64,000 bases of DNA, taken from the NCBI GenBank assembly GCA_045597365.1, contig JAZLKB010000059.1, forward strand, positions 9,217-73,216. Reading direction: 5' to 3'. This DNA comes from Bacteroidaceae bacterium. Its GTDB lineage: Bacteria; Bacteroidota; Bacteroidia; Bacteroidales; Bacteroidaceae. The notes beneath the pieces were generated by a model that was not told where the DNA came from, searched no databases, and saw nothing but the letters and a program-made list of their open reading frames with translations. Of the stretch, positions 6,982 through 61,154 are shown piece by piece (position 1 is the stretch's first letter; the number at the start of each line of letters is the position of its first letter). Both the position numbers and the translations under genes were made by a program.

Positions 6982-7006
6982 CCATTATATGTAATTCTAC
7001 AAATTC

Positions 7007-30347: not shown

Positions 30348-30355
30348 TTCAGAAT

Positions 30356-33217: not shown

Positions 33218-33247
33218 TACTGAACTATTATTGCTTCGATCTACATT

Positions 33248-34855: not shown

Positions 34856-34860
34856 CATAA

Positions 34861-35577: not shown

Positions 35578-35584
35578 TATAAGA

Positions 35585-41582: not shown

Positions 41583-43098
41583 CCTGATTTTATCAATAAC
41601 TACTATTGGTGATTTGCTGCTTGAAGGTAGAATCACCAGACAGATGGACGGAAATCCTGTCAATGATGTAAAGCTGTCTGTCCCTGAGTATCAGCGTCCG
41701 TATAAATGGACTGCCAGACATGCTATTCAGCTGCTTGATGATATTCTTGAAGCGATGAACGGCAATAAAGAGTTGTATAGGGTTGGTACCTTGATTCTGC
41801 ATAAGGATCGTGATGATGAGGGATGTACACGGTACAATATTGTAGATGGCCAACAGAGAACCATCACGTTTGCGTTGCTACTCTATGCGTTGTATGAATT
41901 GGAGGTGCAGAATGACAGGAAAACGATAGAATTCCTGAATCAGCAGGTTTATGACAATCCTTTTAATCGTCACAATATTCCCAACAATCTGAATGCGTTC
42001 AGGCGAAGGACTCATAAGAGTTGTGATGACGAGGATAACTGGGAGCACTTAAGAGACATGAGACGCCTGCGAGATTTCATAGAAAGGCAATGTGAACTGA
42101 TTGTGGTGATTACTGATGACGTTTCGGAAGCGTTCCAGTTTTTTGATTCACAGAATGCAAGAGGAAAAACGTTATATCCTCACGATTTGTTGAAGGCCTA
42201 TCATCTGCGCGAGATGGCTGACATTGACAATAATGAGACGGAACGGATAGTCAAAGAATGGGAAAGGATTCCACAAGGTGAGCTGGCCTCGTTCTTTGGC
42301 GATTATCTGTATAGGATTAAGGAATGGATCAATGGAAATTGGGCATATAAGCTCAGTGAACAGAATATATACAAGTTTAAGGGAATCAGCAAACTGGCCC
42401 GGAATCCATATGCGCAGTTCTACAAGAGTGCGTTTTCTTACGCCGAGATGATTAATTCGTCCTATATGCCGTTTGTGTCGGGGATGAGGGAGGTGAATGC
42501 GTTTCAATTGAACACGCCCATCATTGCCGGTAAACCGTTTTTTGAATATACGAAACACTATTACGGCATACTGAAGGATATTCAGGATAACAGCCAGTAT
42601 GAAGGCTTCTATGTGAAAGGTGATACCATAGTCAAAACTTTGGACAAGCATTACAGCACCGGAGTGGGTAACAGGATTGCGCGTTTGCTGTTTGACACAG
42701 CACTGCTGCTGTATGTGGATCGTTTCTGCCCGGCTACTTATCCTACTAAGGGTGATATTGAACTGTTTGAGGAGTTTGTGACTTACGCTTTTATTTGGGC
42801 ATATTCACTGCGTGCCCAATACTATCATCTGGGGTGGCAATCTGCTCAGAACTATGTGCTGGAACGAAGTGAAAAGATTAACTCGTTTAATATCTATAAG
42901 ATGATTTCAGACTCAGATACTCCTGTGTCGTTGTTGAGCGGTCTGGCTGACAGACTGAATCCACTGTCGTATGATGATATCAATGACAATGTGTATTCAG
43001 GTATTGATAATGAAACCGTAGATGATAAGAATCCGGAAGATGGTGTGTACAGTAACTATCTGCATTTCTTTAAAGTAAACACTTTTTACACTGAGTGA
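41575..43098 (+). CDS. DUF262 (ParB-like NTPase, GmrS-like) protein without nuclease domain
   Basis: VPEYQRPYKW, IVDGQQRTITF and FQFFDSQNARGKTLYPHDLLK motifs. No DUF1524-type His-Me motif. It overlaps the WYL gene by 8 nt. Confidence 0.8.
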   Translation: MNNLILSITTIGDLLLEGRITRQMDGNPVNDVKLSVPEYQRPYKWTARHAIQLLDDILEAMNGNKELYRVGTLILHKDRDDEGCTRYNIVDGQQRTITFALLLYALYELEVQNDRKTIEFLNQQVYDNPFNRHNIPNNLNAFRRRTHKSCDDEDNWEHLRDMRRLRDFIERQCELIVVITDDVSEAFQFFDSQNARGKTLYPHDLLKAYHLREMADIDNNETERIVKEWERIPQGELASFFGDYLYRIKEWINGNWAYKLSEQNIYKFKGISKLARNPYAQFYKSAFSYAEMINSSYMPFVSGMREVNAFQLNTPIIAGKPFFEYTKHYYGILKDIQDNSQYEGFYVKGDTIVKTLDKHYSTGVGNRIARLLFDTALLLYVDRFCPATYPTKGDIELFEEFVTYAFIWAYSLRAQYYHLGWQSAQNYVLERSEKINSFNIYKMISDSDTPVSLLSGLADRLNPLSYDDINDNVYSGIDNETVDDKNPEDGVYSNYLHFFKVNTFYTE

Positions 43099-43102
43099 CA
43101 AT

Positions 43103-45139
43103 ATGGAAAAGACATTACCGTTGGAAGAGTGCTCCATATACAGGGTTTATTTTGAAAGTAAGGAGACAAAGACGTATATGATTCCCGTGTATCAGCGCAA
43201 CTATGCATGGGAGGAAGATGAGATAACCGCGTTGGTTAAGGATGTGCATGATTCGTTTGTAAAGGATTGCAACAAGCCGTATTATATTGGTACTCTTGTG
43301 ACTTATAAGCGTGGGGACAGTCTGTATGAGGTTATTGACGGCCAGCAAAGGCTGACCACCATTTATATTATCTTGAAGGCGCTTGGTTTCAAGGATATCC
43401 GCAACAAACTCACCTATGGTGCCCGTAAGGTGTCTGCTTCTACCATTGATCATCTGGACAGTTATCCTAATCTGGGAGATGAGGTGGATGGTGGCATAAG
43501 AAACGGCTATCAGTATGCGGAAAAGGCCATAAGCGCTATTGTGATGGAATGTGAAAAGAAGAGGTTCGAACAGTATTTTCTCCACTTTGTGCATATCATA
43601 CATTACAATGTTCCTAAAGACGTTGACCTGAATCATTATTTTGAGGTGATGAACTCAAGGGGGGAACAACTGGAGAAGCACGAAATTGTTAAGTCAACAC
43701 TCTGCCAGGAACTGACTAAGTCGGAAATTGCAACATTCAGCCGAGTGTGGGAGGCTTGTAGTGAGATGAATATCTATATACAGCAGGCTTTTCCGGACAA
43801 GACCATCTTTGGAAATAATTGTGAGGATTTCGTCATTATGAAATTTGGGGATATACCTCAGCAGGACGAATCTGATGGAAAGAAGTCAATCCTGAGCCTT
43901 TTGGATAAACCGGCTAAAGATATTAAGAAGAGTGTAAATATTGAACAGAGTGACAGGTTTCAGCCAATCATTGACTTTCCTAATTTCTTGCTTATTGTAC
44001 TGAAAGTGACATTGATGGGTAGGGATGGATTTGAACCTGCAAAATTTGTATTGGATGATAAGGAGTTGCTTAACGAATTTTTGATGGCTTTGGGCGCAAC
44101 TTCGGATAAGGCTGAGTTTGCAAGACAATTTGCGTATAACCTATTGAGAGCCAGATATTGCTTGGACAATTATGTTATTCATCATTCGATGAATGATAAA
44201 GAGATGACTGGTGATAATCCGTGGAAACTGCAATATTATCATTTTGAAAAGAAAAAGGGATATCCGGAGAATTTGGCGGAAGGGAATGTGCAGGATGAAC
44301 TGGTGCATCTGATGTCGATGTTTGAGGTGGCATTTACCGCAAGACAAAGGAAGAACTATCTGTTCTATTGTATGATGTATTTGTTTGAGAATCATGAGCC
44401 ATCTGGAGGTGATTATCTCCAGTTCCTGCAATTCTTGGCTGACAAGTATTTTTATGATGTTTACTTGAATCCCGATAGTCTGAACGAGAGGAACCAACCT
44501 GTTCCAAATGCATTTGACAGTGCTATGTTGGCAAACGGCAAGTTGAATATGGATGTATGCAGCTATGGGACGACAGACTACAGAAAGAGGTTTAAAGAGA
44601 TATACAGGCAGGGCTGTTCGGACATTCCTTTGTTCGTGTTCAATTATACTGATTATAAACTGTGGCAAAAATATGTCAAGGAATTGCGCGGCTATAAATA
44701 TAAGAAAGGTTCGAAGGAGAGGACTGATTTCTTTTCAGAATTGGGATGTAGTGACTTTGAACTTGATTTGTTCAAAAGCTTTTACTTTTCGCGTACCAGA
44801 AAGAGTCTGGAGCATTTTTATCCGCGTGCCAAGGCTGGTGATGATAAATCTCTGAATCTGACCGAGATAAACTGTTTCGGTAACTTCGCAATGATTGGTG
44901 CTGAAGCGAACAGCTCCGGAAGCGATTGGGATCCGAAGACGAAACTTGATCATTATTGCGATGGCAAATCTAATCAAGTGAGTGTGGCATCACTGAAGTT
45001 CAGGATTATGATGCAAGTGTGCCAGGACAATTACTTGAAGATGCTGAATGGTAAACTTCATAGGATTCCAGGCATGGAGTGGGATGCAGATGATATGCAG
45101 ACTCATCAACAAAGGATGTTGGATGTTATTATCAGGTAA
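43103..45139 (+). CDS. DUF262-DUF1524 fusion (GmrSD/BrxU-type nuclease)
   Basis: IPVYQRNYAW, VIDGQQRLTTIY and FEVMNSRGEQL, plus the C-terminal SLEHFYPRA...FGNFAMIGAEANSSGSDW (His-Me finger of DUF1524). Confidence 0.85.
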   Translation: MEKTLPLEECSIYRVYFESKETKTYMIPVYQRNYAWEEDEITALVKDVHDSFVKDCNKPYYIGTLVTYKRGDSLYEVIDGQQRLTTIYIILKALGFKDIRNKLTYGARKVSASTIDHLDSYPNLGDEVDGGIRNGYQYAEKAISAIVMECEKKRFEQYFLHFVHIIHYNVPKDVDLNHYFEVMNSRGEQLEKHEIVKSTLCQELTKSEIATFSRVWEACSEMNIYIQQAFPDKTIFGNNCEDFVIMKFGDIPQQDESDGKKSILSLLDKPAKDIKKSVNIEQSDRFQPIIDFPNFLLIVLKVTLMGRDGFEPAKFVLDDKELLNEFLMALGATSDKAEFARQFAYNLLRARYCLDNYVIHHSMNDKEMTGDNPWKLQYYHFEKKKGYPENLAEGNVQDELVHLMSMFEVAFTARQRKNYLFYCMMYLFENHEPSGGDYLQFLQFLADKYFYDVYLNPDSLNERNQPVPNAFDSAMLANGKLNMDVCSYGTTDYRKRFKEIYRQGCSDIPLFVFNYTDYKLWQKYVKELRGYKYKKGSKERTDFFSELGCSDFELDLFKSFYFSRTRKSLEHFYPRAKAGDDKSLNLTEINCFGNFAMIGAEANSSGSDWDPKTKLDHYCDGKSNQVSVASLKFRIMMQVCQDNYLKMLNGKLHRIPGMEWDADDMQTHQQRMLDVIIR

Positions 45140-51499: not shown

Positions 51500-51811
51500 T
51501 CATTTGCAGATAATCGGATCTCCGCAATATTGCTTTCGTTGACACTTATTGCACATCTCTCCACGCCAAACTTTGTCAAAGTCTTCCCGGAATGCCTGCC
51601 CTGGTTCCTTCGCATGAATCAGCATAACATCGACACCGCGCTTCAGCAAAGTCGCCATAATCATCAGGAACGGCTCCTGTTTGTCCCCAACTTTTACATA
51701 CAGGTCTTTGATGTCGGCAGTACCGATACATAGCGACTCTTTACATGTTGATGCCAATGATAGCACCTCGTTGTAATGCTGCTCGTTGGATATGTACTTG
51801 ATGAACGGCAT
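51500..51811 (-). CDS. Small hypothetical protein with Cys-rich tail
   Basis: 103 aa. The LLKRGVDVMLIHAKEPG segment vaguely recalls PLD-family N-lobes. The C-terminus is CNKCQRKQYCGDPIIC. Function unknown. Confidence 0.3.
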   Translation of the reverse strand: MPFIKYISNEQHYNEVLSLASTCKESLCIGTADIKDLYVKVGDKQEPFLMIMATLLKRGVDVMLIHAKEPGQAFREDFDKVWRGEMCNKCQRKQYCGDPIICK

Positions 51812-51824
51812 AATCGTCTTCCTC

Positions 51825-52058
51825 CTATCTTTTTCTGAGTATCCAGGTCAGACCTTTGTTCTTTGAAAAATACAGGCCTTTCTGAGTAGTAGCGAGTATC
51901 TCAGAACCATTATCCATGAGATCTACGAATCCTCCGACTGAACTGTTGGTGCAGCGCAGAATCCAGGTCAGTCCATTGTTTTTTGAAAACTCAATCTTCT
52001 TGTTGTCCTTCGGCGATATTCTTATCAGTTCATCGCCGCACTTGATCATTGTTGGCAT
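51825..52058 (-). CDS. 77-aa protein made of two Asp-box/BNR-like repeats
   Basis: SKNNGLTWILR and SKNKGLTWILR lie 40 aa apart. The DNA shows the same 120-nt periodicity (ATCCAGGTCAG at 51841 and 51961). Confidence 0.5.
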   Translation of the reverse strand: MPTMIKCGDELIRISPKDNKKIEFSKNNGLTWILRCTNSSVGGFVDLMDNGSEILATTQKGLYFSKNKGLTWILRKR

Positions 52059-52240: not shown

Positions 52241-54577
52241 TCATTGTATTGGTTGATATGATTGAAGTTCATGTAAAGCATCAAGTAACGATTGTATGCT
52301 GTTTGGCTGTTGAAGTTGATGCTCTGGAACATCTTGTTTATAAATAACTCCGTTAGAGTGCCAATTATATTCATTGCCTAGGTATAGGAATTCAATATCC
52401 TTGGCATTGAACAAACCGCAAGGCTTCCGTATTTGGGGATTACATAGCGTAATTATACTTGCATCTAAAGCCTCGTTGACAACTTTGTCGCGAATTTCAT
52501 TGAACAACACATAAGGATTATTGCTTGTAGGATAGTATCTTAATACATCATAGCCATTGGTGTCACTATGAGACGTGTACACACCCTTTTCAAATGTAAC
52601 TTCCTGCAAAAGTGCTGTTTGAATAAGCGATTTTTTTGCATAAGAGGGCTCATCTGCAACAGCCGTAGTGAGTTGCTCGTTATCCATGGGAGATGCTATC
52701 AGCCATTTGTGAACCGTTTCGGTTTCATACGGCAGCAGCCCTCTCCAATATGCATCTCGACGTGCACCCTTTGGGAACCACCATCTCCATCTAAGGTTAT
52801 AATCCTGTATGAGAATATTACGGAATGCAATACTATTAAGGTCTGAGTAATTTGACAAATACCACATAACATGGCGGTATTTCGTATCAAAGAGTGACCA
52901 GTCGTAATTACCCTTTTCATCAGTAAACAATGCACGTACTGAACCACAGAATACCTGGTTTCCTTCAATAGAAGTAATCACTTCCTCCCAACTTTTATCT
53001 TGCAGCTCGGCTATTGATCCATCATAGAGTCCCTTGTTAAACTGACGTATTTTCTCCTGCTCCTCAATAATGTGTAATGAAACCTTGTCGTTATCCCCAT
53101 CTGAAGGAGATTGGAATGTTTCCACGTTATACACATCCCACTTGTATGGGAAAGATTTGTGCAAAGAGAGAATAGTGGAACGTAGTACGGTTTTACTTCT
53201 TATCTCGTTTCGTACATTATTACCATCTATAACTTTATAATTGCAAACATTCCAAACAATACGCATCCATCGGGTCAACAGTTCTTTGGTGCAGTAGCAA
53301 GATGGAGATTCCATAAACTGACAAACTGCCCAAAAAGAGATAGTTTCAGGAATGGTTTGTCTGTAAAGATCGTTTTTTCCAGAGGTATAGACGACCTCGA
53401 AAGTTTCGTTGGATGTTTCGTATGGATCTTTGACACATGATGATAGCATCTTCCTGTCAAATCTCCGTAAATTCTCCAGGACAGTACGTAAATCATAAAG
53501 CACACTGAATCCTCCTAAGAGGTCAAAGATGGTCTGATAGACACCAAATCCTGTCAGATTGTAGCTTGCTCGGGAATTATTATCATCAGTAAAGCTATAA
53601 AGGTATTTGAAAGCTTTGTCTACATCCGATGAACCTAAATCCTTATCTTCTATTGTCTGAGGTTTCTGGGCCATCATCATGCGAACAAGAAGATAACGGT
53701 TGATGAATCCAAACATCATATCGTCTAGCGTAATCCCTTTATTACGATAATTCCAGAAAAAGTCAAGCCATTTGGTATCTAATAAGATAGGCAGACCATT
53801 TTGAGCATCAAGCAAGGATTTCCATTCATTATCTGTGATATATTTGATGAGGTCAGCTTTGAAGTTTTCAAAATCAGATAAGGGCTTGCCTCGCCCGTTC
53901 ATTTTGACGTATAAGTCGTCAGATTGGCCAAGATTCTCCAAATTGAGCTCATAAAACACCACAGGACATATGGCTGCCGGTGAAACAAGTCTGTTCCAAT
54001 AATAATCCAATCTGTCCTCTGTAAGGCCATTGAAAAGTTCCTCAATGCCATCAATTTTGTCATTTATTTCACCGCTCAACATTCTCATCATGGCCTGGAC
54101 TGTTGGATCCTGACGCCATGCTGAAGGAACCCATGTCTGACGAATAATTGCATCGGCGATATTCTCCTTCTCGGCTATCTTTATTTCCGCTCCCCGTTTT
54201 ACAAGTTGAAAGCAGAACTGGGTGCTGCTTGATCTTGTTTCATAACTAAAGTTTCTTAGATGCTTGCTGACAGTTTCATCAGACAATTTGCCCAAACGAA
54301 AAGCCAGATACCAATATAGAAGCCACAATGTAGTCAGACGCTGTTGTCCGTCAAGAGGATTAAATCTACCTTCCTGATCTGATGAGCCATAAACAAAATC
54401 AAGTTTCAGCTGCTCCTTCGGATCATCAAGAGCTTTCTTTATGGAAAGAAGGAAATTTTCGCGCAAATTTTCAAAACCGATGCGTCCTTGGGCATAATCT
54501 CTTTGGAGAATTGGAATGACGATGCATGAATTGTCCAGCAATTGCCACAGTGATGTCTTGTTTGCGATATTGTTCAT
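52241..54577 (-). CDS. DUF262 (ParB-like NTPase) protein with long uncharacterised C-terminal region
   Basis: IPILQRDYAQG, LDGQQRLTTLWLL and YVKMNGRGKPLSDFENFK. No DUF1524 motif in the remaining ~540 aa. Confidence 0.8.
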   Translation of the reverse strand: MNNIANKTSLWQLLDNSCIVIPILQRDYAQGRIGFENLRENFLLSIKKALDDPKEQLKLDFVYGSSDQEGRFNPLDGQQRLTTLWLLYWYLAFRLGKLSDETVSKHLRNFSYETRSSSTQFCFQLVKRGAEIKIAEKENIADAIIRQTWVPSAWRQDPTVQAMMRMLSGEINDKIDGIEELFNGLTEDRLDYYWNRLVSPAAICPVVFYELNLENLGQSDDLYVKMNGRGKPLSDFENFKADLIKYITDNEWKSLLDAQNGLPILLDTKWLDFFWNYRNKGITLDDMMFGFINRYLLVRMMMAQKPQTIEDKDLGSSDVDKAFKYLYSFTDDNNSRASYNLTGFGVYQTIFDLLGGFSVLYDLRTVLENLRRFDRKMLSSCVKDPYETSNETFEVVYTSGKNDLYRQTIPETISFWAVCQFMESPSCYCTKELLTRWMRIVWNVCNYKVIDGNNVRNEIRSKTVLRSTILSLHKSFPYKWDVYNVETFQSPSDGDNDKVSLHIIEEQEKIRQFNKGLYDGSIAELQDKSWEEVITSIEGNQVFCGSVRALFTDEKGNYDWSLFDTKYRHVMWYLSNYSDLNSIAFRNILIQDYNLRWRWWFPKGARRDAYWRGLLPYETETVHKWLIASPMDNEQLTTAVADEPSYAKKSLIQTALLQEVTFEKGVYTSHSDTNGYDVLRYYPTSNNPYVLFNEIRDKVVNEALDASIITLCNPQIRKPCGLFNAKDIEFLYLGNEYNWHSNGVIYKQDVPEHQLQQPNSIQSLLDALHELQSYQPIQ

Positions 54578-56556
54578 ATTAAGAAGTCGTTAATCTGCTT
54601 TTTTATGTCTTTCAAATAAGCTTCAGCGTCAGGTCTGGTCCAAGCCATCAGAGCATTCACATCAGCTGTATAGTATTTCATGAATGCCTGTTTGGTGCAT
54701 ATTGGTACAAATGCAACGGACTTGCCAGCAATACTCACAACACCATCATCACCGAGTGTGCAGCGTATTCCCTGTTCTTTATATATAACGAATGATCTCT
54801 TGACACTGAAAATGGAATTATGATAGCTCTTGTTTGTTTTCTCATCTAAGAGTGCCAGATTCCATATATGCATCCTTTCATTGTCATCATCTCCATCTTC
54901 GCATTTGACACTCACTGACAGCAAATTGTCTGTCGGGAACTGGGACATCACATTGTTGTAGACAGTTTCAAAGTCAACAATGCTGTCCTTGTCGTGGGTC
55001 TTAAGCATTTTCTTCACATCATCATCCAATGTCAGTTTTCCTGAAGCAATTGCTGCTCTGATCCATGATTTCTGCTCCTTTCCTTTTGTAAGTTCATTTG
55101 TGGTTGCGGAATCTATGTGCTCAACGTTCCACACTTCACGCTTGAACAAGTGGAACGGAAACTTGTAGAATGTAGCCAGTTTGTACTTGTCGGCCTGGAT
55201 TTCCTTCTGGTTTACAATGGTCTGGACATTATGCAGAAGTAGAATTTTCCTGATCAATGGTTTGTGCTTATCAAAATGAAGCTTGTTCAGTTCTTCCTTT
55301 TCACAGTGAATGATTTTATCACGGATTTCCGCCTTTATTTTTGTTACAAATTGCAGTTTGTCATTCTCTTCTGAAATCCAAAGATTATACCACGCATTGA
55401 TTCTTTTCCGTTTTTCAGTTATTCCATCCCTGTCATCTTCAATTGTCCAAATTACATATCCCATATAGTGATAAAGGATAGGGTCATCAAACCATTCCTT
55501 GAGAGCATCAAACAATGTTGTGACTTCTGCCCATACTGAATCAAGATGCTGTGAAACAGTTTCATTCGTGTCAATTCGCTCTATCTGTTTTGCAAAATAG
55601 CGATATACGCTATACCGGTCATTACCTATCAATCTGTCATATTCAGATTTACCAAGTGTATTTTTCAAACCGAACCGGTCATTCACATAAATCAGTTTGA
55701 AAAGGAAATCGATTCTAGTAAACTCCTTCTGTTCTGCATCATTGAGGAACAGCCAGAACTCGTCATTCTGAAGTGCATATTCAATCTCATCCCATTTAGT
55801 GGAAATCTGAAGTTGTTTGTTGCGGATATATTCAGAATGAAGGCCAGAATAATTTGAGCTGTTAAGCAAGGCGGCTTTGATCAGTTCTGCATTTGTAAGT
55901 GATATCTTGCCTATATTCAACCTTGTAAAAACCTCTTTTGGATCCTCCCCAATAGACTCATACCAGATGAATTTCACCTTTTCTAGAATTGTGTTGTACA
56001 AGAGAGATTTAACGTTTTCATCCTTATCAGACAGAAAAGACATGATTTCATTTCTGGCCGTTACCATGTGCTGATAGTCAATGTTGGCCTCACCGTCTTT
56101 ATCTGTTTTGTTCAAAATGTCCATAAGAAAATTCCGACTGTTAACCCTTGTCTGATAAGTGATTGTGTATGGACAATTTTCCCCTAATACCATAAGAATA
56201 ATGAACAAGGTGGTAAGACGTTGCTGGCCGTCAATTACTTCCCACCTGGTCAAATTCTGAAGTTCCTGTTCAAGATAACCTACCGGATCAGGCTCATTTT
56301 CTATACTGCCGACCAAATTATTAATGTCGTTCATAAAAGTCTTCTGGTCTATCATACTGCGTTTTACGACCAACGGCTGCATGCAATAGAATCCTGAATT
56401 TTGATGCCTCATAAAATTTAACAGGTCATTCATCAATTCCGTAACCTGCAATTTTTCCCATCTGTATCCGCGCTGATAATCCGGAATGAAAAAGTCCATT
56501 CCAAGAATATCATTTACGGCTACTATACCAATCTTGTTATTATAGTAAGGTCCCAT
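54574..56556 (-). CDS. DUF262-DUF1524 fusion (GmrSD/BrxU-type nuclease)
   Basis: IPDYQRGYRW, VIDGQQRLTTLFII and FTRLNIGKISLTNAELIK, plus the C-terminal WNVEHIDS...HIWNLALLDEKTNKS. ATGA overlap with the downstream DUF262 gene. Confidence 0.85.
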   Translation of the reverse strand: MGPYYNNKIGIVAVNDILGMDFFIPDYQRGYRWEKLQVTELMNDLLNFMRHQNSGFYCMQPLVVKRSMIDQKTFMNDINNLVGSIENEPDPVGYLEQELQNLTRWEVIDGQQRLTTLFIILMVLGENCPYTITYQTRVNSRNFLMDILNKTDKDGEANIDYQHMVTARNEIMSFLSDKDENVKSLLYNTILEKVKFIWYESIGEDPKEVFTRLNIGKISLTNAELIKAALLNSSNYSGLHSEYIRNKQLQISTKWDEIEYALQNDEFWLFLNDAEQKEFTRIDFLFKLIYVNDRFGLKNTLGKSEYDRLIGNDRYSVYRYFAKQIERIDTNETVSQHLDSVWAEVTTLFDALKEWFDDPILYHYMGYVIWTIEDDRDGITEKRKRINAWYNLWISEENDKLQFVTKIKAEIRDKIIHCEKEELNKLHFDKHKPLIRKILLLHNVQTIVNQKEIQADKYKLATFYKFPFHLFKREVWNVEHIDSATTNELTKGKEQKSWIRAAIASGKLTLDDDVKKMLKTHDKDSIVDFETVYNNVMSQFPTDNLLSVSVKCEDGDDDNERMHIWNLALLDEKTNKSYHNSIFSVKRSFVIYKEQGIRCTLGDDGVVSIAGKSVAFVPICTKQAFMKYYTADVNALMAWTRPDAEAYLKDIKKQINDFLI

Positions 56557-56583
56557 AAGTTTATTTTTACTAAAGATTTGGAA

Positions 56584-57090
56584 TTACATTATTTTCAATG
56601 CGATTGCCGCGCAAGCCTCGGCATCAGCCAGGGCGTGGTGGTGCTGTGTGAGGTCGTAGCCGCAGGCGGCGGCGACGGTGTGGAGCTGGTGATTCTCCAG
56701 AGAGTGACCGAAATGGGCACGTGATGCGGCCAGGGTGTCGTAGAAGGTGTAGTCAGGATAGTCCATCTGATATACCTGAAAAGCAGCCTTCAGACAGCTT
56801 TCGTCAAAGCAGGCGTTGTGTGCCACGAGTGGCAGGCCTTCTATCTTTGGGACAATCTGTTTCCATACTTCTGAGAAAACCGGGGCGTTGCAGGTGTCTG
56901 CCTCGCAGAGGCCATGCACCTGGCTGCAGAACCATTTGTAGTAGCTGGGTTCCGGATTGATTAGGGAATAGAACTTATCTACGATCTTGCCTTTCTTCAC
57001 AATGACAACACCGACGCTGCACACACTGCTGCGGCACTCATTAGCCGTTTCAAAGTCAATCGCCGCGAAGTTCATTTCTGATTTTTTCAT
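56584..57090 (-). CDS. DEDDh (DnaQ/RNase T-like) 3'-5' exonuclease
   Basis: ExoI FAAIDFETA, ExoII LVAHNACFDESCL, ExoIII HHHALADAEA. I chose the start at ATG 57090, which forms an ATGA overlap with the WYL gene stop. 57123 and 57075 are alternatives. Confidence 0.8.
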   Translation of the reverse strand: MKKSEMNFAAIDFETANECRSSVCSVGVVIVKKGKIVDKFYSLINPEPSYYKWFCSQVHGLCEADTCNAPVFSEVWKQIVPKIEGLPLVAHNACFDESCLKAAFQVYQMDYPDYTFYDTLAASRAHFGHSLENHQLHTVAAACGYDLTQHHHALADAEACAAIALKIM

Positions 57091-58022
57091 ATCTGGCTTT
57101 CTTCCTTTCTGTAATACTTGCACATGTTGTAAACCCTGCGCGAAATCTCATCGCACAACCACTTGGGCTCCAGAACTTCAAAATCATCGGCATGGGAGAA
57201 TATCTCCTGCATGAAATCAAAAGTCGGCTTCAGACGATAGCGGAAAATTGTGCAACTATCGCTGCCGCCTTCCTCTTCCGTCTGGCTGGAGTGGAGGGGA
57301 ACAGAACGGACGTATTTCGCCTGATTGCCAGTGACCTTGATACGCACTGTCTCCACCTGGTAGTCATCACCATGAATAATGCCATAACAGTCCTCAAAGA
57401 ACTCGTCAGCATGGAAATCTTCCGGCATCCTGAAAATCCGGTCATTTTGTACTTCCATATTCTGAATCCTATCAAGCGCATATACACGTATCTGGTCGTC
57501 ACCTATACTGTGAGCAATCAGATACCATCTCTGCTTGAATACCTTTACGAAATATGGCTCTACAGGAAAAGTATGTCTGCCACGTCCCCAATATCCTTCA
57601 TAGGTTATGTCGATGGGATGATCATCCCGCATGGCCTTTATAATAGATGTGAGCCATTGCTGCCCGGAAGGGATGTTCTCGTACTGGATACGGCCACGAA
57701 GATTAGAACATTCATTTACAACATTGCTTACTGAAATCGTGTCTATCAGCCAACGCTTTATGTCCGAATGCTCATCCAGATTGTTCTCATTCTCAATGTA
57801 ATAGGTCTTGTCTCCGTATTTGTTGCACTTGATGTGCAGACCGAATATATTGTTGATGGCATTGATGTGATTGTGGAAGGTCTTGTCCGCCATTTCTTCA
57901 TGGTTGTCGTTGAGACTCGAATGACGCCATTTGCGCATAAGGTCTTCTTTCGTCCAATGCCCGGTCTGTATTGTATCAATCAACCAGGCATATCGTTTGA
58001 ACAATGTTCCTGCTTCGCTCAT
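57087..58022 (-). CDS. WYL-domain protein
   Basis: VEPYFVKVFKQRWYLIAHSIGDDQIRVYALDRIQ is a textbook WYL core. The N-terminal ~100 aa are plausibly winged-helix. Confidence 0.75.
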   Translation of the reverse strand: MSEAGTLFKRYAWLIDTIQTGHWTKEDLMRKWRHSSLNDNHEEMADKTFHNHINAINNIFGLHIKCNKYGDKTYYIENENNLDEHSDIKRWLIDTISVSNVVNECSNLRGRIQYENIPSGQQWLTSIIKAMRDDHPIDITYEGYWGRGRHTFPVEPYFVKVFKQRWYLIAHSIGDDQIRVYALDRIQNMEVQNDRIFRMPEDFHADEFFEDCYGIIHGDDYQVETVRIKVTGNQAKYVRSVPLHSSQTEEEGGSDSCTIFRYRLKPTFDFMQEIFSHADDFEVLEPKWLCDEISRRVYNMCKYYRKEESQI

Positions 58023-58058
58023 CTTGAATAGTTTTCAAATATTGACGTAAAGATAATA

Positions 58059-58089
58059 AGCGCTAATGTAATATTATGGCATTAGCGCT
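58059..58089 (-). terminator. Hairpin between the AAA+ and WYL genes (possible terminator)
   Basis: AGCGCTAATG (58059-58068) pairs with CATTAGCGCT (58080-58089) across an 11-nt loop. On the minus strand it is followed by the U-rich UAUUAUCUUUA. Confidence 0.4.
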
Positions 58090-58104
58090 CATAATCATGT
58101 GGTC

Positions 58105-60186
58105 TCATCTGCTAAATCCGATATTTCCACACTTTTTAGAGAGATGTTCCTGCGAACAGAGCTCGCGAAGATAGTCAAGTGAATATCCATCGCCGGTCAG
58201 CACCTCGTTCATTGTCGCTTTACGGACAATGTTGTCTATCTCACCTCCAGAGAAATCGTATTCAGCGGCCAGAGCATCTGCATCCGATTCTGTCAACAGA
58301 GGGAGCTTATCCTGCCAAATCATCCTCTTTGCCTCAATGTCAGGCTTTTCAAACTTGACCTTGAAGAGGAACCTGCGCTCAAAAGCCGCATCCAGATTCC
58401 CTTCCAGATTGGTGGTGGCTATCAGTATGCCCTGCAACTTTTCCATCTGCTCAAGAATGATGTTCTGAATGGCATTCTCAGTCTGATCAACGCTACTGGA
58501 TGTGTTCTCCATCCGTTTGCTGAAAATGGCATCTGCTTCGTTGAAGAGCAGGATAGGGGCTTTCACGGATTTCCGGCACAAACGCTCGTACTTTTTGAAA
58601 ACACCCTTCACCAGTTTCTGGCTCTCTCCATACCAGCATGTCTTCATTTCAGAGATGTCCACCTGCATAACGTCGCGGCCGGAAGCTTTGGCTAGCTGAT
58701 AAACACTCTCCGTCTTTCCTGTACCCGGCGTTCCGTAGAATATGGCAGCAACACCCGTGGGAAGTTCCTTCTCCTTCAAACGGTTCTGCAGATTCTCAAA
58801 GGCTGCTGGCTGTATGCTGTCGGACAGGAAATCCAGCTGTTTCCTGAGGGCAGGGGAGAAGTACAGGTTCTTGGCCTTGATTTTGTCAACGTCCAGAACA
58901 TCATTTGTCTTCTCTTTCCTTTTGAACTTTTCTGCGTCTTTCTGTAAGAACAACTCACGCCCATCATCGGTCAGCTCAACCTTCGTACTTCCGAAGAAAC
59001 TCTCCTCGCCAAGTTCTGCCAAACCGAGAGTCTGAAGGGGATGCTCCTCATTTCTCCACCTTGTACTCTCTTCCAAAATGTGTTGCTGTTTGTCATAAAT
59101 ATCATCTAGAGTGGTCTCCAGACACGTGCGGCCGTGCAGACTGTCAGCGCACATCTCGTAGAAAAACATTCTGTCCGGAATATTTTTCATGTTTTTTTTC
59201 GTCCCTTTGACCAGAGATAGAGACTTGTTGTCCGATTCCAGATCACAGACCATCCTTTCAAGCTTAAGTGTATTGTAGTTGTTCCTCTTCCTTTCATCAA
59301 TCAAATCCGAGACAGCCTTCACAAATTCAAATTTGTCAAGTCCGGTTGTCTTCTTCATTTTAACTTCTGCATATTCACCCAAGAGGAGTTCGTATCCGCT
59401 TTTTGTGGGTTTCAGTTTGTAGTCGTCATAGTCCTGCCAGCATTCCACAAGACCGCATTTTTGGAGGGCTGATTTCTCTCTGATGAAGTCCTTCATTTCA
59501 CTGAGGACCTGACTGCGATGGTCGAAAAGGTCTTTGAGGGTACTCTCCAAATCAGATTCATTCCCATCAATGAAGTTGTCCTTGCAGATATCGTAAAACA
59601 GAACCCTATCTTCGATACCCGGCAACATATGTCTGACTTTCTTTACAAAAGCACAGGATGAGAAGGACTCTTCCAGTTCATTGGCCTGTGCCAGAAATGT
59701 GGCCGCCGACACCTCATCACTGTCCCTGTTCTCCAACCATTCTCCAATCTCTTTCACGAGATCAAAGTAATCAGGCTCACCCTGTGATGACTTTGCCTTC
59801 GAGAGAGGCTCATCGCACAAGATGGCTTCAAAAACGACTGACGGAACTCTGAAGCTTGCACTCGTAAAGCTGGCAGTACACTCCCTGTGTCTTCTCACCT
59901 TTTCTATGAGACCGCTGAAAAGGAGCTTGTCGAAGTCCTTTTTATGCTCCACAATGTCCAGTGACGAACACTCGAAATATCGTGATATTTCATCTACATC
60001 ACTGTTTGAACCGCTTGACGTTTTGTCAAAGATTGCGACGAAGATGATGGTTTGCATCAGGTCCGTACCCAGATACTCACCTAGGACAGCAATCTCTTTT
60101 TCCACCGAAGTAATATTCTCCAACTTTTCGTCACGAAGCTTGTTGGCTATTGTCTTGATGATACCTACTGCATTGAGAGTTTCCAT
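58105..60186 (-). CDS. Classical AAA+ ATPase with ~450-aa repeat-containing N-terminal region
   Basis: Walker A GTPGTGKT, Walker B LLFNEAD, sensor ATTN and Arg-finger region AFERRF. The N-terminal part has about three copies of a ~55-aa module (see findings). Confidence 0.85.
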   Translation of the reverse strand: METLNAVGIIKTIANKLRDEKLENITSVEKEIAVLGEYLGTDLMQTIIFVAIFDKTSSGSNSDVDEISRYFECSSLDIVEHKKDFDKLLFSGLIEKVRRHRECTASFTSASFRVPSVVFEAILCDEPLSKAKSSQGEPDYFDLVKEIGEWLENRDSDEVSAATFLAQANELEESFSSCAFVKKVRHMLPGIEDRVLFYDICKDNFIDGNESDLESTLKDLFDHRSQVLSEMKDFIREKSALQKCGLVECWQDYDDYKLKPTKSGYELLLGEYAEVKMKKTTGLDKFEFVKAVSDLIDERKRNNYNTLKLERMVCDLESDNKSLSLVKGTKKNMKNIPDRMFFYEMCADSLHGRTCLETTLDDIYDKQQHILEESTRWRNEEHPLQTLGLAELGEESFFGSTKVELTDDGRELFLQKDAEKFKRKEKTNDVLDVDKIKAKNLYFSPALRKQLDFLSDSIQPAAFENLQNRLKEKELPTGVAAIFYGTPGTGKTESVYQLAKASGRDVMQVDISEMKTCWYGESQKLVKGVFKKYERLCRKSVKAPILLFNEADAIFSKRMENTSSSVDQTENAIQNIILEQMEKLQGILIATTNLEGNLDAAFERRFLFKVKFEKPDIEAKRMIWQDKLPLLTESDADALAAEYDFSGGEIDNIVRKATMNEVLTGDGYSLDYLRELCSQEHLSKKCGNIGFSR

Positions 60187-60352
60187 AGTTCCTATTATTT
60201 AATGATTTTTTGAATCATGGTACAAAATTCATTCGGTCTAATGTAAAAAAATGGCAGCAGCAGAGAATTCTGCTTTGTTTTATGAATTGAATTGCCAAAC
60301 TGGCAGAAGAACGGGCGTAGAGAACATCTGACTGCAGGATTGGCAGCCGTAA

Positions 60353-60505
60353 GCGACGCTGATGTATCTGGACGGTATGCCGATATATGACATCATGAAG
60401 GTGACGGGGCACAAGAGCGTCACTACTCTGGAGAAGAACATCAGAGCGGACAAGCTGGAGGTTGCGCAGAAGCTGGCGCGGAAGAGCTACCAGTATTTCA
60501 AGTGA
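60353..60505 (+). pseudogene. C-terminal remnant (~50 codons) of a tyrosine recombinase/integrase
   Basis: ...LMYLDGMPIYDIMKVTGHKSVTTLEKNIRADKLEVAQKLA... resembles the GH.S..TT tail of Bacteroidales integrases. The frame opens just after a TAA at 60350-60352. The usual catalytic Tyr context is not evident. Confidence 0.45.
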
Positions 60506-60837
60506 TGTGCCGGGGGCACGGCAATTCTTATTTGAGAATTGTCATCTTCGCGAAGACTTTCCAAACGTGATAATGTTTTGCCGTCTTCAACTGAAAATAT
60601 GCCGGTCTTTACATAGTGCAGTCCGAAAATGGCAATAAGTCCGCCATGAGTGGATGTCTTATGGCCATCGTTCACCAATAATGCGAGTATTGCATGGAAC
60701 AGAGAATAATAAAGTCTGTTCGCTACAATGTCCCACATGCCATTGTTGGCCAAAGTCGGAATCATGGCATACGTTTTTGAGGCTTTGTCAAACTCCAAAG
60801 TGACTATTGATTTCCTTTCTTCCGGATCAAGGCTCAT
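60487..60837 (-). CDS. HEPN-domain protein (toxin-like partner of MNT)
   Basis: NRLYYSLFHAILALL...HGGLIAIF matches the PF05168-type HEPN pattern. 4-nt overlap with the upstream nucleotidyltransferase gene. Confidence 0.7.
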   Translation of the reverse strand: MSLDPEERKSIVTLEFDKASKTYAMIPTLANNGMWDIVANRLYYSLFHAILALLVNDGHKTSTHGGLIAIFGLHYVKTGIFSVEDGKTLSRLESLREDDNSQIRIAVPPAHHLKYW

Positions 60838-61154
60838 AGGATGTTTATTTTGTCCTGTTCGACATTTTTATAGAACGGCGTGAAAGAGTAGGATTCCCAC
60901 TGCTTCCTGCTATACAGAATTGGTGAAATGCTCTCGCCAAAATCCCAGCCTAATGCCACGAACGGATATGCGTAGCTGTCATGATCGGCATTTGCTATTC
61001 TGTCCTTATCTATCAGCAACAGCAAATCCCAGTCGGAACCGTCATGGTAGTCACCTCTGGCACGGGAGCCGTACAGCCAGACATTGCTGCCCGCTGGAAG
61101 GCATTTTTCTGCCAGCTGATGAATACAATCCAGTATTATCTGTTCCTTTGACAT
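60834..61154 (-). CDS. Minimal nucleotidyltransferase (MNT, antitoxin-like)
   Basis: LYGSRARGDYHDGSDWDLLLL is the G-S-x(n)-D-x-D Pol-beta NTase signature. Confidence 0.8.
   Translation of the reverse strand: MSKEQIILDCIHQLAEKCLPAGSNVWLYGSRARGDYHDGSDWDLLLLIDKDRIANADHDSYAYPFVALGWDFGESISPILYSRKQWESYSFTPFYKNVEQDKINIL

What the first reader, a model, noticed from the sequence alone, without database searches (positions are those of the whole stretch)
52241..60186. Candidate undescribed defence module: (AAA+) / WYL / DEDDh exonuclease / DUF262-DUF1524 / DUF262
Seen in sequence: five minus-strand genes lie in a row. The WYL stop and the exonuclease start share an ATGA (57087-57090). The exonuclease is 27 nt from the DUF262-DUF1524 gene. 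That gene shares another ATGA (54574-57577 region, exactly 54574-54577) with a second, nuclease-less DUF262 gene. This packing suggests the four genes are translated as one unit. The AAA+ gene lies 82 nt upstream behind a weak hairpin, so its membership is uncertain.

Established knowledge: DUF262 (DGQQR NTPase) fused to DUF1524 (His-Me nuclease) defines GmrSD/BrxU type IV restriction enzymes, which act as single polypeptides. WYL proteins (BrxR, CapW) are sensors and repressors of defence operons.

Inference: I know of no named system that combines a GmrSD-type nuclease with an obligate second DUF262 paralogue and an in-operon DnaQ-like 3'-5' exonuclease. The exonuclease could process or amplify nicks and ends made by the His-Me nuclease. 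Alternatively it could degrade a WYL ligand.
Basis: partly seen in the sequence, partly recalled or inferred. Interest (0 to 1): 0.8.

Follow-up and report, generated by a model that had tools for sequence, protein, structure and literature searches.

The report
WYL-regulated two-subunit GmrSD nuclease with exonuclease
This is a Bacteroidales anti-phage locus whose core is a two-protein relative of the known GmrSD/TgvAB restriction enzymes under a WYL regulator, and its only unusual part is a small proofreading-type exonuclease that turns up repeatedly beside such nucleases and that I found named in no system.

Summary
The five minus-strand genes, both ATGA overlaps and the 27-nt and 82-nt gaps are real.

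**Domain calls.** All hold, with one caveat. The DUF1524 nuclease domain of the 660-aa protein is below Pfam's threshold. It is supported by family-level hits, invariant E479/H480/N566/N575 and a predicted ββα element.

**The "second DUF262 paralogue" is not new.** V. cholerae TgvAB (2024) has this architecture. This pair has the reverse gene order (nuclease subunit first). That order held in 75 of 80 species-level loci across many phyla. WYL regulators beside type IV restriction enzymes are also published.

**The DEDDh exonuclease link is unnamed.**
- It lies within 10 kb of the pair in 14 of 80 loci.
- It sits directly upstream of the nuclease gene in Bacteroidales, Flavobacterium and Verrucomicrobiota.
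- It precedes three different GmrSD architectures.
- A 2015 supplementary table already records RNase_T and WYL enrichment near GmrSD genes, without discussing it.

**Caveats.** An 82%-identical exonuclease sits in a housekeeping context next to HrpB. The AAA+/WYL/exonuclease genes also occur without a DUF262 pair.

**Verdict.** A new variant of a known kind, of moderate interest. The same window carries a second WYL plus DUF262 pair, in TgvAB order and without an exonuclease.

The parts
58105..60186 (-). AAA+ ATPase of the classic Cdc48/VCP/Vps4 clade, with a 440-aa N-terminal region of unknown fold. It is a recurrent neighbour and probably a separate transcription unit.
   Evidence: PF00004 at 2e-22 over residues 482-613. 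PADLOC IetA 6e-20, but NCBIfam IteA scores 70 bits against a cut-off of 510. Closest PDB relatives are VCP-like ATPases. Full-length homologues lie next to WYL/exonuclease or the pair in L001, L003, L007, L015, L018, L022, L046, L081, L176-L179, L190, L193 and L194. A ClpP gene precedes it in L001 and L176 and is cleanly absent here.
58052..58096 (-). Strong hairpin in the AAA+/WYL gap. It is a likely intrinsic terminator of the AAA+ gene, and an operator role is not excluded.
   Evidence: 13-bp core stem, -24.1 kcal/mol, z = -5.3, and none of 200 shuffles folded as well. An inverted repeat at the same place in L001 keeps pairing through changed bases: GAGCGCTAATG/CATTAGCGCT against GCGTACTAATG/CATTAGCACGC.
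57087..58022 (-). WYL-WCX protein, presumed ligand-sensing transcription regulator of the downstream genes.
   Evidence: PF13280 WYL 2.8e-15 and PF25583 WCX 4.3e-10. A profile of 18 homologues hits PafBC 6e-27, DriD about 1e-18, CapW 6.5e-7 and BrxR 8e-6. The N-terminal 115 aa have no Pfam HTH hit. The conserved pattern LxRYxWLIDTI...RTFHN...YYIEN looks like a winged helix, by inference only.
56584..57090 (-). DEDDh (DnaQ-like) 3'-5' exonuclease, 168 aa, with its start overlapping the WYL stop.
   Evidence: RNase_T 6e-16 and Rv2179c-like 7e-16. PRK06195 epsilon-like N-domain 6e-44. D12, E14, D96, H151 and D156 are invariant in 17 context-linked homologues. Closest PDB relatives are the PolC exonuclease domain, the DinG exonuclease and Pol III epsilon.
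54574..56556 (-). Subunit B: DUF262 (DGQQR NTPase/sensor) plus a divergent DUF1524 His-Me nuclease. This is the effector.
   Evidence: GmrSD_N 1e-28. GmrSD_C scores only 19.2 bits here, but 6 of 26 family members pass (best 6e-7). D109-R113, E479, H480, N566, N575 and N580 are invariant. The AF2 model has pLDDT 83.7, with strand 476-480 ending at H480, strand 567-571 and helix 572-578. Foldseek top hits are DndI 9jfl 4e-8 and SspE 7drs/6jiv.
52241..54577 (-). Subunit A: DUF262-only paralogue with a fast-evolving 480-aa C-terminal region and no nuclease motif. It is the presumed specificity or regulatory partner.
   Evidence: GmrSD_N 3.5e-18. D76-R80 (DGQQR) is invariant and there is no invariant His in the C-terminal part. 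AF2 pLDDT is 86.5. Foldseek hits are SspE 6jiv 3.6e-5 and DndI. Against L001, the first 450 nt are 100% identical and the rest is about 57% identical, while B is 99.6% identical. The C-terminal region alone finds only 132 clusters at E <= 1e-3 among 1.84 billion representatives.
51825..52058 (-). 77-aa protein with two SxNxGxTW (BNR/Asp-box-like) repeats. It is a recurrent small neighbour of this gene community, and its membership is uncertain.
   Evidence: Weak BNR hit at 0.002. Homologues lie between the exonuclease and B in L176-L179, after A in L023, next to the AAA+ gene in L015, L022 and L046, and upstream of the exonuclease in L090 and L091. No PHROG hit.
51500..51811 (-). Truncated PLD-like gene: 103 aa, where relatives have about 170 aa. 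It is a remnant of a gene that often follows the pair.
   Evidence: It matches residues 1-101 of PLDc_2 proteins that follow A in L001/L002 (8e-51) and that occur in L008, L012, L053, L066 and L081. It has no Pfam hit itself.

Best explanation
The locus is a modification-dependent (type IV-like) restriction module of the GmrSD family, built from two subunits.

- **B (660 aa)** carries a DGQQR NTPase/sensor domain and a divergent His-Me (DUF1524) nuclease. It is the effector.
- **A (778 aa)** is a nuclease-less DUF262 paralogue. Its rapidly diversifying C-terminal region most likely sets target or trigger specificity, or gates B, as TgvA does for TgvB.
- **WYL gene.** Immediately upstream and co-transcribed, it encodes a PafBC/DriD/BrxR-type ligand-sensing regulator, most likely controlling its own operon.
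- **DEDDh exonuclease.** This small 3'-5' exonuclease is a functional accessory of the nuclease. It either enlarges the nicks or ends made by B so that foreign DNA is destroyed, or produces or removes the single-stranded DNA that WYL domains of this type sense.
- **AAA+ gene.** It is a frequently co-located but separately terminated neighbour, paired with ClpP in relatives. It is not an obligate part.

**Shown:** gene order, overlaps, domains, catalytic residues, conservation of the B-then-A pair, and recurrence of the exonuclease and WYL genes next to GmrSD-family genes.

**Inferred:** heteromer formation, modification dependence, the ligand of WYL, and the exonuclease's substrate and role.
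For: **Core pair**
- B lies directly upstream of A in 75 of 80 species-level loci from Bacteroidota, Firmicutes, Actinobacteria, Proteobacteria, Campylobacterota, Verrucomicrobiota and Spirochaetota. Four of the other five loci start at a contig end and the fifth fails only on the choice of ORF start.
- The commonest junction is a 4-nt overlap.
- Both subunits keep DGQQR, and B keeps E479/H480/N566/N575.
- Both models hit SspE and DndI.
- The TgvAB precedent shows a DUF262-only partner can be essential.

**Exonuclease**
- The catalytic DEDDh residues are invariant.
- The gene is within 10 kb of the pair in 14 of 80 loci.
- It lies directly upstream of B in the window, L001, L007, L012, L022/L023 (Flavobacterium), L058/L075 (Verrucomicrobiota) and L144.
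- In exonuclease-selected contexts, a DUF262 gene is within 10 kb in 7 of 15.
- The exonuclease precedes three GmrSD architectures: single chain in L090/L091, B then A in L096, and DUF262-DUF7834 then DUF262-DUF1524 in L081.
- A published background-corrected enrichment gives RNase_T P = 1e-25 and WYL P = 2e-16 near GmrSD homologues.

**WYL**
- WYL plus WCX domains are present, and the profile is closest to the ssDNA-sensing PafBC and DriD.
- The WYL stop overlaps the exonuclease start here and in L007, L067, L087, L088, L096 and L193.
- The association of WYL regulators with type IV restriction is published.

**Mosaic against L001**
- B is 99.6% identical while the C-terminal two-thirds of A are about 57% identical. 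This fits a swappable specificity region.
Against: - The exonuclease and WYL genes are absent from about 80% of pair loci, so they are not required by the core.
- An exonuclease 82% identical to this one overlaps an HrpB helicase gene in a conserved housekeeping context. In an NJ tree that copy nests inside the island-associated clade.
- WYL-exonuclease pairs, often with the AAA+ gene, occur with no DUF262 pair nearby or beside other effectors (L086, L190, L193, L180).
- In several loci unrelated genes sit between the exonuclease and the pair (L066, L067, L019, L010).
- DUF1524 is sub-threshold in this protein.
- No experiment exists for this B-then-A family. The target modification is unknown, and the closest folds (SspE, DndI) sense phosphorothioate rather than glucosyl-hmC.
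- The promoter could not be located.
Confidence: 0.6

Rival explanations
1. The locus is a defence island made of independent modules: (i) AAA+ (with or without ClpP), (ii) a self-contained WYL-exonuclease or AAA+-WYL-exonuclease sensor/effector or regulatory cassette, and (iii) the B-A restriction pair. The three sit together because Bacteroidota islands shuffle the same cassettes, not because they act on one pathway.
For: - In exonuclease-selected contexts WYL is adjacent in 10 of 15 and a PF00004 AAA+ gene lies within 6 kb in 5 of 15, often without a DUF262 pair. Examples are L193, L194, L180 and L190, where WYL-AAA-exo precedes a DUF4011 helicase-nuclease.
- Order and orientation vary between loci (L003, L008, L010, L076).
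- Other genes are inserted between cassettes: AbiE, a KAP NTPase and FtsZ-like genes.
- The identity mosaic against L001 shows the parts have separate histories.
- A strong hairpin separates the AAA+ gene from the rest.
Against: - The exonuclease is glued to the nuclease gene (0-30 nt or overlapping) in distant phyla that lack WYL and AAA+ (L058, L075).
- It is also glued to single-chain GmrSD genes (L090, L091).
- It associates with three GmrSD architectures, which is hard to explain by island shuffling alone.
- Here the ATGA overlaps and the 27-nt gap couple WYL, exonuclease, B and A.
Confidence: 0.28
2. The exonuclease has no defence role. It is a duplicated housekeeping gene of the HrpB-linked type. 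Because it is highly conserved, it acts as a recombination anchor or hitch-hiker at island insertion points.
For: - P0132 is 82% identical, overlaps hrpB and sits among metabolic genes in at least 10 samples.
- More than 100 clusters at 77-86% identity exist in Bacteroidales.
- L006 keeps a 3' exonuclease remnant in frame upstream of B, plus a complete exonuclease 350 nt upstream. This shows recombination within the gene.
- Decayed WYL-exonuclease remnants exist (L180, L187).
Against: - All five catalytic residues are invariant in island copies.
- Only distantly related exonucleases (32-40% identity) occupy the same position upstream of B in Flavobacterium, Verrucomicrobiota and Treponema. In the NJ tree they fall in separate deep lineages, which suggests repeated recruitment.
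- Translational coupling to both neighbours argues for a shared role.
Confidence: 0.1

Closest known systems
TgvAB (V. cholerae VPI-2; PMC11411939; bioRxiv 10.1101/2024.04.05.588314)
   Same: - Two adjacent, overlapping genes both encode DUF262 with DGQQR.
- Only one carries the DUF1524 His-Me nuclease.
- The nuclease-less partner resembles GmrSD only in its N-terminal domain.
- Homologous operons are reported as widespread, including in Bacteroidales.
   Different: - Gene order is reversed here (nuclease subunit first) with a 4-nt rather than an 8-nt overlap.
- The pair is not embedded in a type I RM operon.
- It is preceded by WYL and DEDDh exonuclease genes.
- Orthology to V. cholerae TgvA/TgvB could not be tested because no sequences were available.
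- The window's other pair (41575-45139) is in TgvA-then-TgvB order, and its nuclease His is residue 571, as in TgvB H571. That pair is probably the closer TgvAB relative.
Single-chain GmrSD-family enzymes (Eco94GmrSD, BrxU, HEC-06, SspE, DndI)
   Same: - The DUF262 NTPase/sensor is joined by a helical linker to a DUF1524 His-Me nuclease.
- The E-H catalytic dyad is present (VEHID here, EHICP in HEC-06).
- The best fold matches are DndI and SspE.
   Different: - Those enzymes act as single polypeptides (homodimers). Here a second DUF262 protein is conserved next to the nuclease in 75 of 80 loci.
- DUF1524 is divergent, with about 85 residues between the catalytic His and the Asn motif.
- Sequence similarity to the solved members is confined to the DGQQR region.
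BrxR/CapW and PafBC/DriD WYL regulators
   Same: - The WYL plus WCX architecture is shared.
- The gene sits at the head of a defence operon.
- BrxR-family regulators are reported most often with BREX and type IV restriction (PMC9122601).
   Different: - The profile is closer to PafBC and DriD (6e-27, 1e-18) than to CapW and BrxR (6.5e-7, 8e-6).
- The N-terminal DNA-binding domain is not recognised by Pfam.
- The stop overlaps the start of an exonuclease gene, which is not described for BrxR, CapW, PafBC or DriD.
Cas-associated DEDDh exonucleases, PADLOC candidate PDC-S48, IetAS
   Same: - The exonuclease hits PDC-S48 (4e-31) and the Cas-associated DEDDh model (3e-25).
- The AAA+ protein hits IetA (6e-20).
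   Different: - PDC-S48 models are 411-512 aa, and only their N-terminal 160 residues match.
- There is no CRISPR-Cas here.
- The IetA match is far below the NCBIfam cut-off (70 against 510 bits), and the partner in relatives is ClpP, not the IetS subtilase.

Membership tests
GmrSD family (type IV restriction) | N-terminal DUF262 with the DGQQR NTPase motif | tested here: met
   PF03235 at 1e-28 (B) and 3.5e-18 (A). DGQQR is invariant in both family alignments.
GmrSD family (type IV restriction) | C-terminal DUF1524 His-Me nuclease (H...N...H/N on a beta-beta-alpha element) | tested here: met
   This holds for B only, and with a caveat. PF07510 scores 19.2 bits in this protein, below the gathering score of 23. 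Six of 26 homologues pass, best 6e-7. E479, H480, N566, N575 and N580 are invariant. The predicted strand 476-480, strand 567-571 and helix 572-578 place them as in TgvB and BrxU. A has no such motif.
GmrSD family (type IV restriction) | Acts as a single polypeptide | tested here: not met
   A nuclease-less DUF262 gene follows B in 75 of 80 loci, usually overlapping it. This is genomic evidence only.
GmrSD family (type IV restriction) | Cleaves only modified DNA (glc-hmC, hmC or phosphorothioate) | not testable with these tools
   Needs phage challenge or biochemistry.
TgvAB two-protein system | Adjacent DUF262-only and DUF262-DUF1524 genes, both with DGQQR | tested here: met
TgvAB two-protein system | Order tgvA (nuclease-less) then tgvB, with overlapping ORFs | tested here: not met
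   The order here, and in 75 of 80 relatives, is nuclease subunit first. An overlap is present (4 nt). In TgvAB, tgvA is upstream and the overlap is 8 bp.
TgvAB two-protein system | Sequence orthology to V. cholerae VC1767/VC1766 | not tested
The paper's Table S5 is held truncated. The window's second pair matches the TgvB numbering H571/N602 (His571, Asn603).
TgvAB two-protein system | Both proteins required for defence | not testable with these tools
   Needs genetics.
BrxR-type WYL defence regulators | N-terminal winged HTH, then WYL, then WCX | tested here: inconclusive
   WYL and WCX are met. Residues 1-122 have no HTH hit, and the profile search aligns only positions 105-302. A conserved helix-like pattern was seen by eye.
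BrxR-type WYL defence regulators | Binds inverted repeats at its own promoter and represses the island | not testable with these tools
   A 13-bp inverted repeat lies 30-74 nt upstream of the start. Its arms change in a compensatory way in L001, which favours a terminator.
DEDDh (DnaQ-like) 3'-5' exonucleases | Exo I DxE, Exo II D, Exo III H-x4-D | tested here: met
   D12, E14, D96, H151 and D156 are invariant in 17 sequences. PF00929 at 6e-16.
IetAS | IetA ATPase with IetS subtilase partner | tested here: not met
   IteA scores 70 bits against a cut-off of 510. No S8 protease is present. Relatives carry ClpP upstream instead.

The most novel reading that the evidence does not exclude
A small DEDDh exonuclease, repeatedly recruited (in Bacteroidales from a housekeeping HrpB-linked lineage), is a general accessory of GmrSD-family nucleases of three architectures. 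Together with an ssDNA-sensing PafBC/DriD-like WYL regulator it would form a feed-forward circuit: basal nicking of modified DNA, then 3'-5' resection, then single-stranded DNA, then WYL-dependent induction of the nuclease operon. That would be the first defined ligand-generating enzyme for a defence-island WYL regulator.
Probability: 0.2. Interest if true: 0.75.

Novelty: new variant of a known kind. Interest (0 to 1): 0.5.

Why it matters
- Two-subunit GmrSD-type enzymes were recognised only in 2024, and why the nuclease-less partner is needed is still open.
- This family is very common. About 7,000 homologues were scored for each subunit, and the pair was found across many phyla.
- It offers a natural experiment. 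In two contigs the nuclease subunit is 99.6% identical while the partner's C-terminal region is swapped, which points to the partner as the specificity determinant.
- The recurrent exonuclease gives a concrete, testable handle on two open questions. One is how nicking or cutting by GmrSD-family enzymes is turned into phage DNA destruction. The other is what ligand WYL regulators of defence islands sense.
- If the exonuclease proves irrelevant, the locus is simply another WYL-regulated type IV restriction module in a gut Bacteroidales defence island.

Tried and rejected
- **Metagenome scan.** I replaced it with a viral-contig scan and nine exact-protein look-ups.
- **Promoters.** The sigma-70 promoter scan is uninformative for Bacteroidota. 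The Bacteroides -7 motif TAnnTTTG has no exact minus-strand match upstream of the WYL or AAA+ genes and is not enriched in the window. Promoters were therefore not placed.
- **Solved structures for A.** Sequence search found nothing, so I used fold search instead.
- **Small neighbours.** PHROGs and Pfam gave nothing for the 77-aa, 223-aa and 103-aa proteins.
- **Phosphorothioate link considered and rejected.** Because SspE and DndI are the best folds, I asked whether the pair is tied to a phosphorothioate modification system. The only large neighbouring cluster is type III RM plus Zorya plus a second DUF262 pair, with no dnd or ssp genes.
- **IetAS membership for the AAA+ protein considered and rejected**.
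- **Literature.** Searches for DUF262 or GmrSD together with DEDDh or DnaQ found no paper.

Full report
**1. Observation.**

The five minus-strand ORFs are present as described. Reading the junctions directly shows four things:
- The 660-aa gene ends ...TTA ATA TGA, and the 778-aa gene starts at the ATG inside it (54574-54577).
- The WYL gene ends ...CAG ATA TGA over the ATG of the exonuclease (57087-57090).
- 27 nt separate the exonuclease stop from the next start.
- 82 nt separate the AAA+ stop from the WYL start.

Pfam confirms AAA, WYL plus WCX, RNase_T and GmrSD_N (DUF262) in both large proteins.

Four details need correcting:
- The hairpin in the 82-nt gap is strong: 13-bp stem, -24.1 kcal/mol, z = -5.3. 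In L001 its arms differ in sequence but still pair. That fits a terminator better than an operator.
- DUF1524 is not called at threshold (see section 2).
- Homologues suggest the exonuclease could also start at 57075.
- The terminator scan finds no minus-strand terminator-like site between 58022 and 52241. The region after the last gene does not fold better than shuffles.

**2. The two DUF262 proteins.**

*B (660 aa).*
- DGQQR is at residues 109-113.
- Scanned alone, its C-terminus gives GmrSD_C at 19.2 bits against a cut-off of 23.
- Six of 26 diverse homologues pass, best 6e-7.
- E479, H480, N566, N575 and N580 are invariant.
- The AlphaFold2 model (pLDDT 83.7) puts H480 at the end of a strand, N566 before the next strand and N575 in the following helix. 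This is the His-Me layout described for TgvB and for HEC-06 with its EHICP motif.
- Foldseek returns DndI (4e-8) and SspE (3e-7).

*A (778 aa).*
- It keeps DGQQR (residues 76-80) but has no invariant histidine beyond the N-terminal domain.
- Its model (pLDDT 86.5) again hits SspE and DndI.

The nuclease domain is a divergent one.

**3. The pair is a conserved two-gene unit of a known kind.**

An alignment of A homologues was used to scan one genome per GTDB species. This returned 80 loci.
- B lies directly upstream of A in 75 of them. Four of the remaining five loci start at a contig end, and the fifth fails only on the choice of ORF start.
- The commonest junction is a 4-nt overlap.
- The loci come from Bacteroidota, Firmicutes, Actinobacteria, Proteobacteria, Campylobacterota, Verrucomicrobiota, Chlorobi and Spirochaetota.

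This is the architecture of TgvAB: TgvA DUF262-only and TgvB DUF262-DUF1524, both required, both DGQQR motifs required, overlapping ORFs, and 1,341 homologous operons including in Bacteroidales.

There are two differences from TgvAB. The gene order is reversed, and orthology to the V. cholerae proteins could not be tested.

The same window carries a second cluster on the plus strand:
- WYL (HTH_11 plus WYL plus WCX), 40659-41582.
- DUF262-DUF7834 (507 aa), 41575-43098.
- DUF262 (678 aa), 43103-45139, with a C-terminal LEHFYP...NCFGN...EANS motif.

This cluster is in TgvA-then-TgvB order. Its catalytic His is residue 571 and an Asn is residue 603, matching the mutated TgvB residues H571 and N602. 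It is probably the closer TgvAB relative. The pair in the finding is a separate, uncharacterised B-then-A family.

**4. A looks like the variable subunit.**

Nucleotide identity against contig L001:

| Gene or region | Identity |
|---|---|
| AAA+ | 84% |
| WYL | 85% |
| Exonuclease | 90% |
| B | 99.6% |
| A, first 450 nt | 100% |
| A, remainder | about 57% |

- On another contig B is 90% identical while A is 64% identical.
- The C-terminal 478 residues of A alone find only 132 clusters at E <= 1e-3 among 1.84 billion representatives.
- The whole protein finds about 7,000.

This mosaic fits a recombining specificity region. That reading is an inference.

**5. WYL.**

- A profile of 18 context-linked homologues matches PafBC (6e-27), DriD (about 1e-18), CapW (6.5e-7) and BrxR (8e-6).
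- PafBC and DriD are activators that sense single-stranded DNA (PMC10853764 and PMC9186387, listed).
- BrxR-family regulators are reported most often with BREX and type IV restriction enzymes.
- The N-terminal DNA-binding domain is inferred, not detected.

**6. The exonuclease is the only unnamed element.**

All DEDDh residues are invariant.

*Seen from the pair*:
- The exonuclease lies within 10 kb in 14 of 80 loci, WYL in 16, and both in 12.
- About 11 of roughly 40 Bacteroidota loci have the exonuclease, against 3 of roughly 40 others.
- It is directly upstream of B in the window, L001, L007, L012, Flavobacterium (L022, L023), Verrucomicrobiota (L058, L075) and L144.

*Seen from the exonuclease*, in 15 distinct contexts from a viral-contig scan and exact-protein look-ups:
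- WYL is adjacent in 10.
- A DUF262 gene is within 10 kb in 7.
- A PF00004 AAA+ gene is within 6 kb in 5.
- None of these is present in 3.

The exonuclease precedes three GmrSD architectures:
- Single-chain DUF262-DUF1524 (L090, L091).
- A B-then-A pair with canonical DUF1524 (L096).
- A DUF262-DUF7834 then DUF262-DUF1524 pair (L081 15146-19596). L087 has the same kind of pair, divergently oriented.

Machnicka et al. 2015 list RNase_T in Additional file 8. It accounts for 35 of 9,385 neighbourhood domains against 631 of 885,796 in the background (P = 1.2e-25). WYL is also listed (P = 2e-16). Both are enriched near GmrSD homologues, and the main text does not discuss them. Full-text searches for DUF262 or GmrSD with DEDDh or DnaQ found no paper.

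The association is real and statistically prefigured. I found no system that names it and no experiment that tests it.

**7. Evidence that tempers this.**

- An exonuclease 82% identical to the window's overlaps an HrpB helicase gene among metabolic genes in at least 10 samples. In an NJ tree it nests inside the island-associated Bacteroidales clade.
- In that tree the Flavobacterium, Verrucomicrobiota and Treponema copies are deep, separate lineages interleaved with phage exonucleases. The tree is a short-protein NJ tree without support values. It is compatible with repeated recruitment but does not prove it.
- WYL-exonuclease pairs, often with this AAA+ gene, occur without a DUF262 pair (L086, L193, L194). 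In L190, WYL-AAA-exo sits beside a DUF4011 helicase-nuclease.
- Decayed copies exist (L180, L187).
- Unrelated genes can lie between the exonuclease and the pair.
- L006 retains a 3' exonuclease remnant in frame before B, plus a complete exonuclease upstream. This shows recombination inside the gene.

**8. AAA+ and small neighbours.**

- The AAA+ protein belongs to the classic Cdc48/VCP/Vps4 clade. It is far below the IteA cut-off.
- In L001 and L176-L179 a ClpP gene precedes it. In the window that gene is cleanly missing.
- Its full-length homologues recur in this gene community in varying positions.
- With the strong hairpin, I treat it as a frequent neighbour rather than an operon member.
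- The 77-aa BNR-like protein (51825-52058) and the truncated PLD gene (51500-51811) belong to the same recurrent community.

**9. Mechanism.**

*Shown:* the anatomy, the catalytic motifs, the conserved pairing and the recurrent accessory genes.

*Inferred:*
- B and A form a heteromeric, NTP-gated, modification-sensing nuclease, as in TgvAB.
- A's variable region sets specificity.
- WYL controls the operon in response to a nucleic-acid ligand.
- The exonuclease either extends B's nicks or ends, or makes or removes the ssDNA ligand.

I put 0.6 on this picture. I put 0.28 on the independent-cassettes view and 0.1 on the exonuclease being a hitch-hiking housekeeping paralogue.

**10. Verdict.**

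The core and its regulator are known kinds. The reversed-order pair family and the recurrent DEDDh exonuclease make this a new variant of a known kind, and interest is about 0.5. The most novel reading still open is an exonuclease-driven ssDNA signal feeding an ssDNA-sensing WYL regulator of GmrSD-family nucleases. I give that reading a probability of about 0.2.

Noticed in passing
window 40659-45139 (+): A second WYL plus DUF262 pair sits in the same window. It comprises WYL (HTH_11/WYL/WCX, 307 aa), overlapping DUF262-DUF7834 (507 aa), then DUF262 (678 aa) with LEHFYP...EANS at the C-terminus. His571 and Asn603 match the TgvB residues H571 and N602. The order is nuclease-less subunit first, and there is no exonuclease. 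The two WYL proteins of the window show no BLASTP similarity.
   Followed up: partly
window 28239-39738 (+): A type III RM pair (Mod 28239-30347, Res 30356-33217) is followed by a complete Zorya type I set: ZorA 33248-34855, ZorB 34861-35577, ZorC/EH_Signature 35585-36949, ZorD/SNF2 36946-39738. An unassigned 303-aa gene follows (39741-40652). GC drops to 0.36-0.40 here.
   Followed up: partly
window 52241-54577 against L001 6811-9186: There is a sharp recombination breakpoint inside gene A. The first 450 nt are 100% identical to L001 and the rest is about 57% identical, while the upstream gene B is 99.6% identical and the genes further upstream are 84-90% identical.
   Followed up: partly
L166-L175 (gene at 7001-7495): A 164-aa exonuclease, 82% identical to the window's, overlaps the start of an 819-aa HrpB-type helicase gene in a conserved metabolic context in at least 10 samples. 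This may be the housekeeping source of the island copies.
   Followed up: partly
window 51825-52058 (-); L176 8648-8881; L023 12241-12471; L022 13943-14173; L046 10031-10309: A 77-aa protein with two SxNxGxTW repeats recurs next to the AAA+ gene, the exonuclease or the DUF262 pair in Bacteroidales and Flavobacterium. It has no family assignment.
   Followed up: partly
L001 657-1196; L176 4362-4904; window 60207-60267: A ClpP-family gene directly precedes the AAA+ gene in close relatives and is cleanly absent in the window. This suggests an AAA+/ClpP proteolytic module that can lose its protease.
   Followed up: no
L006 7864-8010: A 3' fragment of an exonuclease gene (…CGYDLSNHHHALVDAEACTAIAL…) is fused in frame upstream of the B start, with a complete exonuclease gene 350 nt further upstream.
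   Followed up: no
window ~60345-60487 (+), 60487-61154 (-): The plus strand reads ...ATLMYLDGMPIYDIMKVTGHKSVTTLEKNIRADKLEVAQKLARKSYQYFK*. This is the C-terminal remnant of a tyrosine recombinase, with Asn where the catalytic Tyr is expected. It abuts a HEPN/nucleotidyltransferase (MNT) pair and marks an island edge.
   Followed up: no
L008 12472-12888; L067 5180-5575: Small Cys-rich proteins with three repeats of CxxCG...RTPSTLxC...GSHQW lie between the pair or exonuclease and neighbouring genes in two loci. They are unassigned.
   Followed up: no
L003/L004 13825-15224: An AbiEi-like/AbiEii pair is inserted between the WYL and exonuclease genes. Other loci carry FtsZ-like GTPases (L066), a KAP NTPase (L067) or an ADP-ribosylglycohydrolase (L010) between the exonuclease and the pair.
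   Followed up: no
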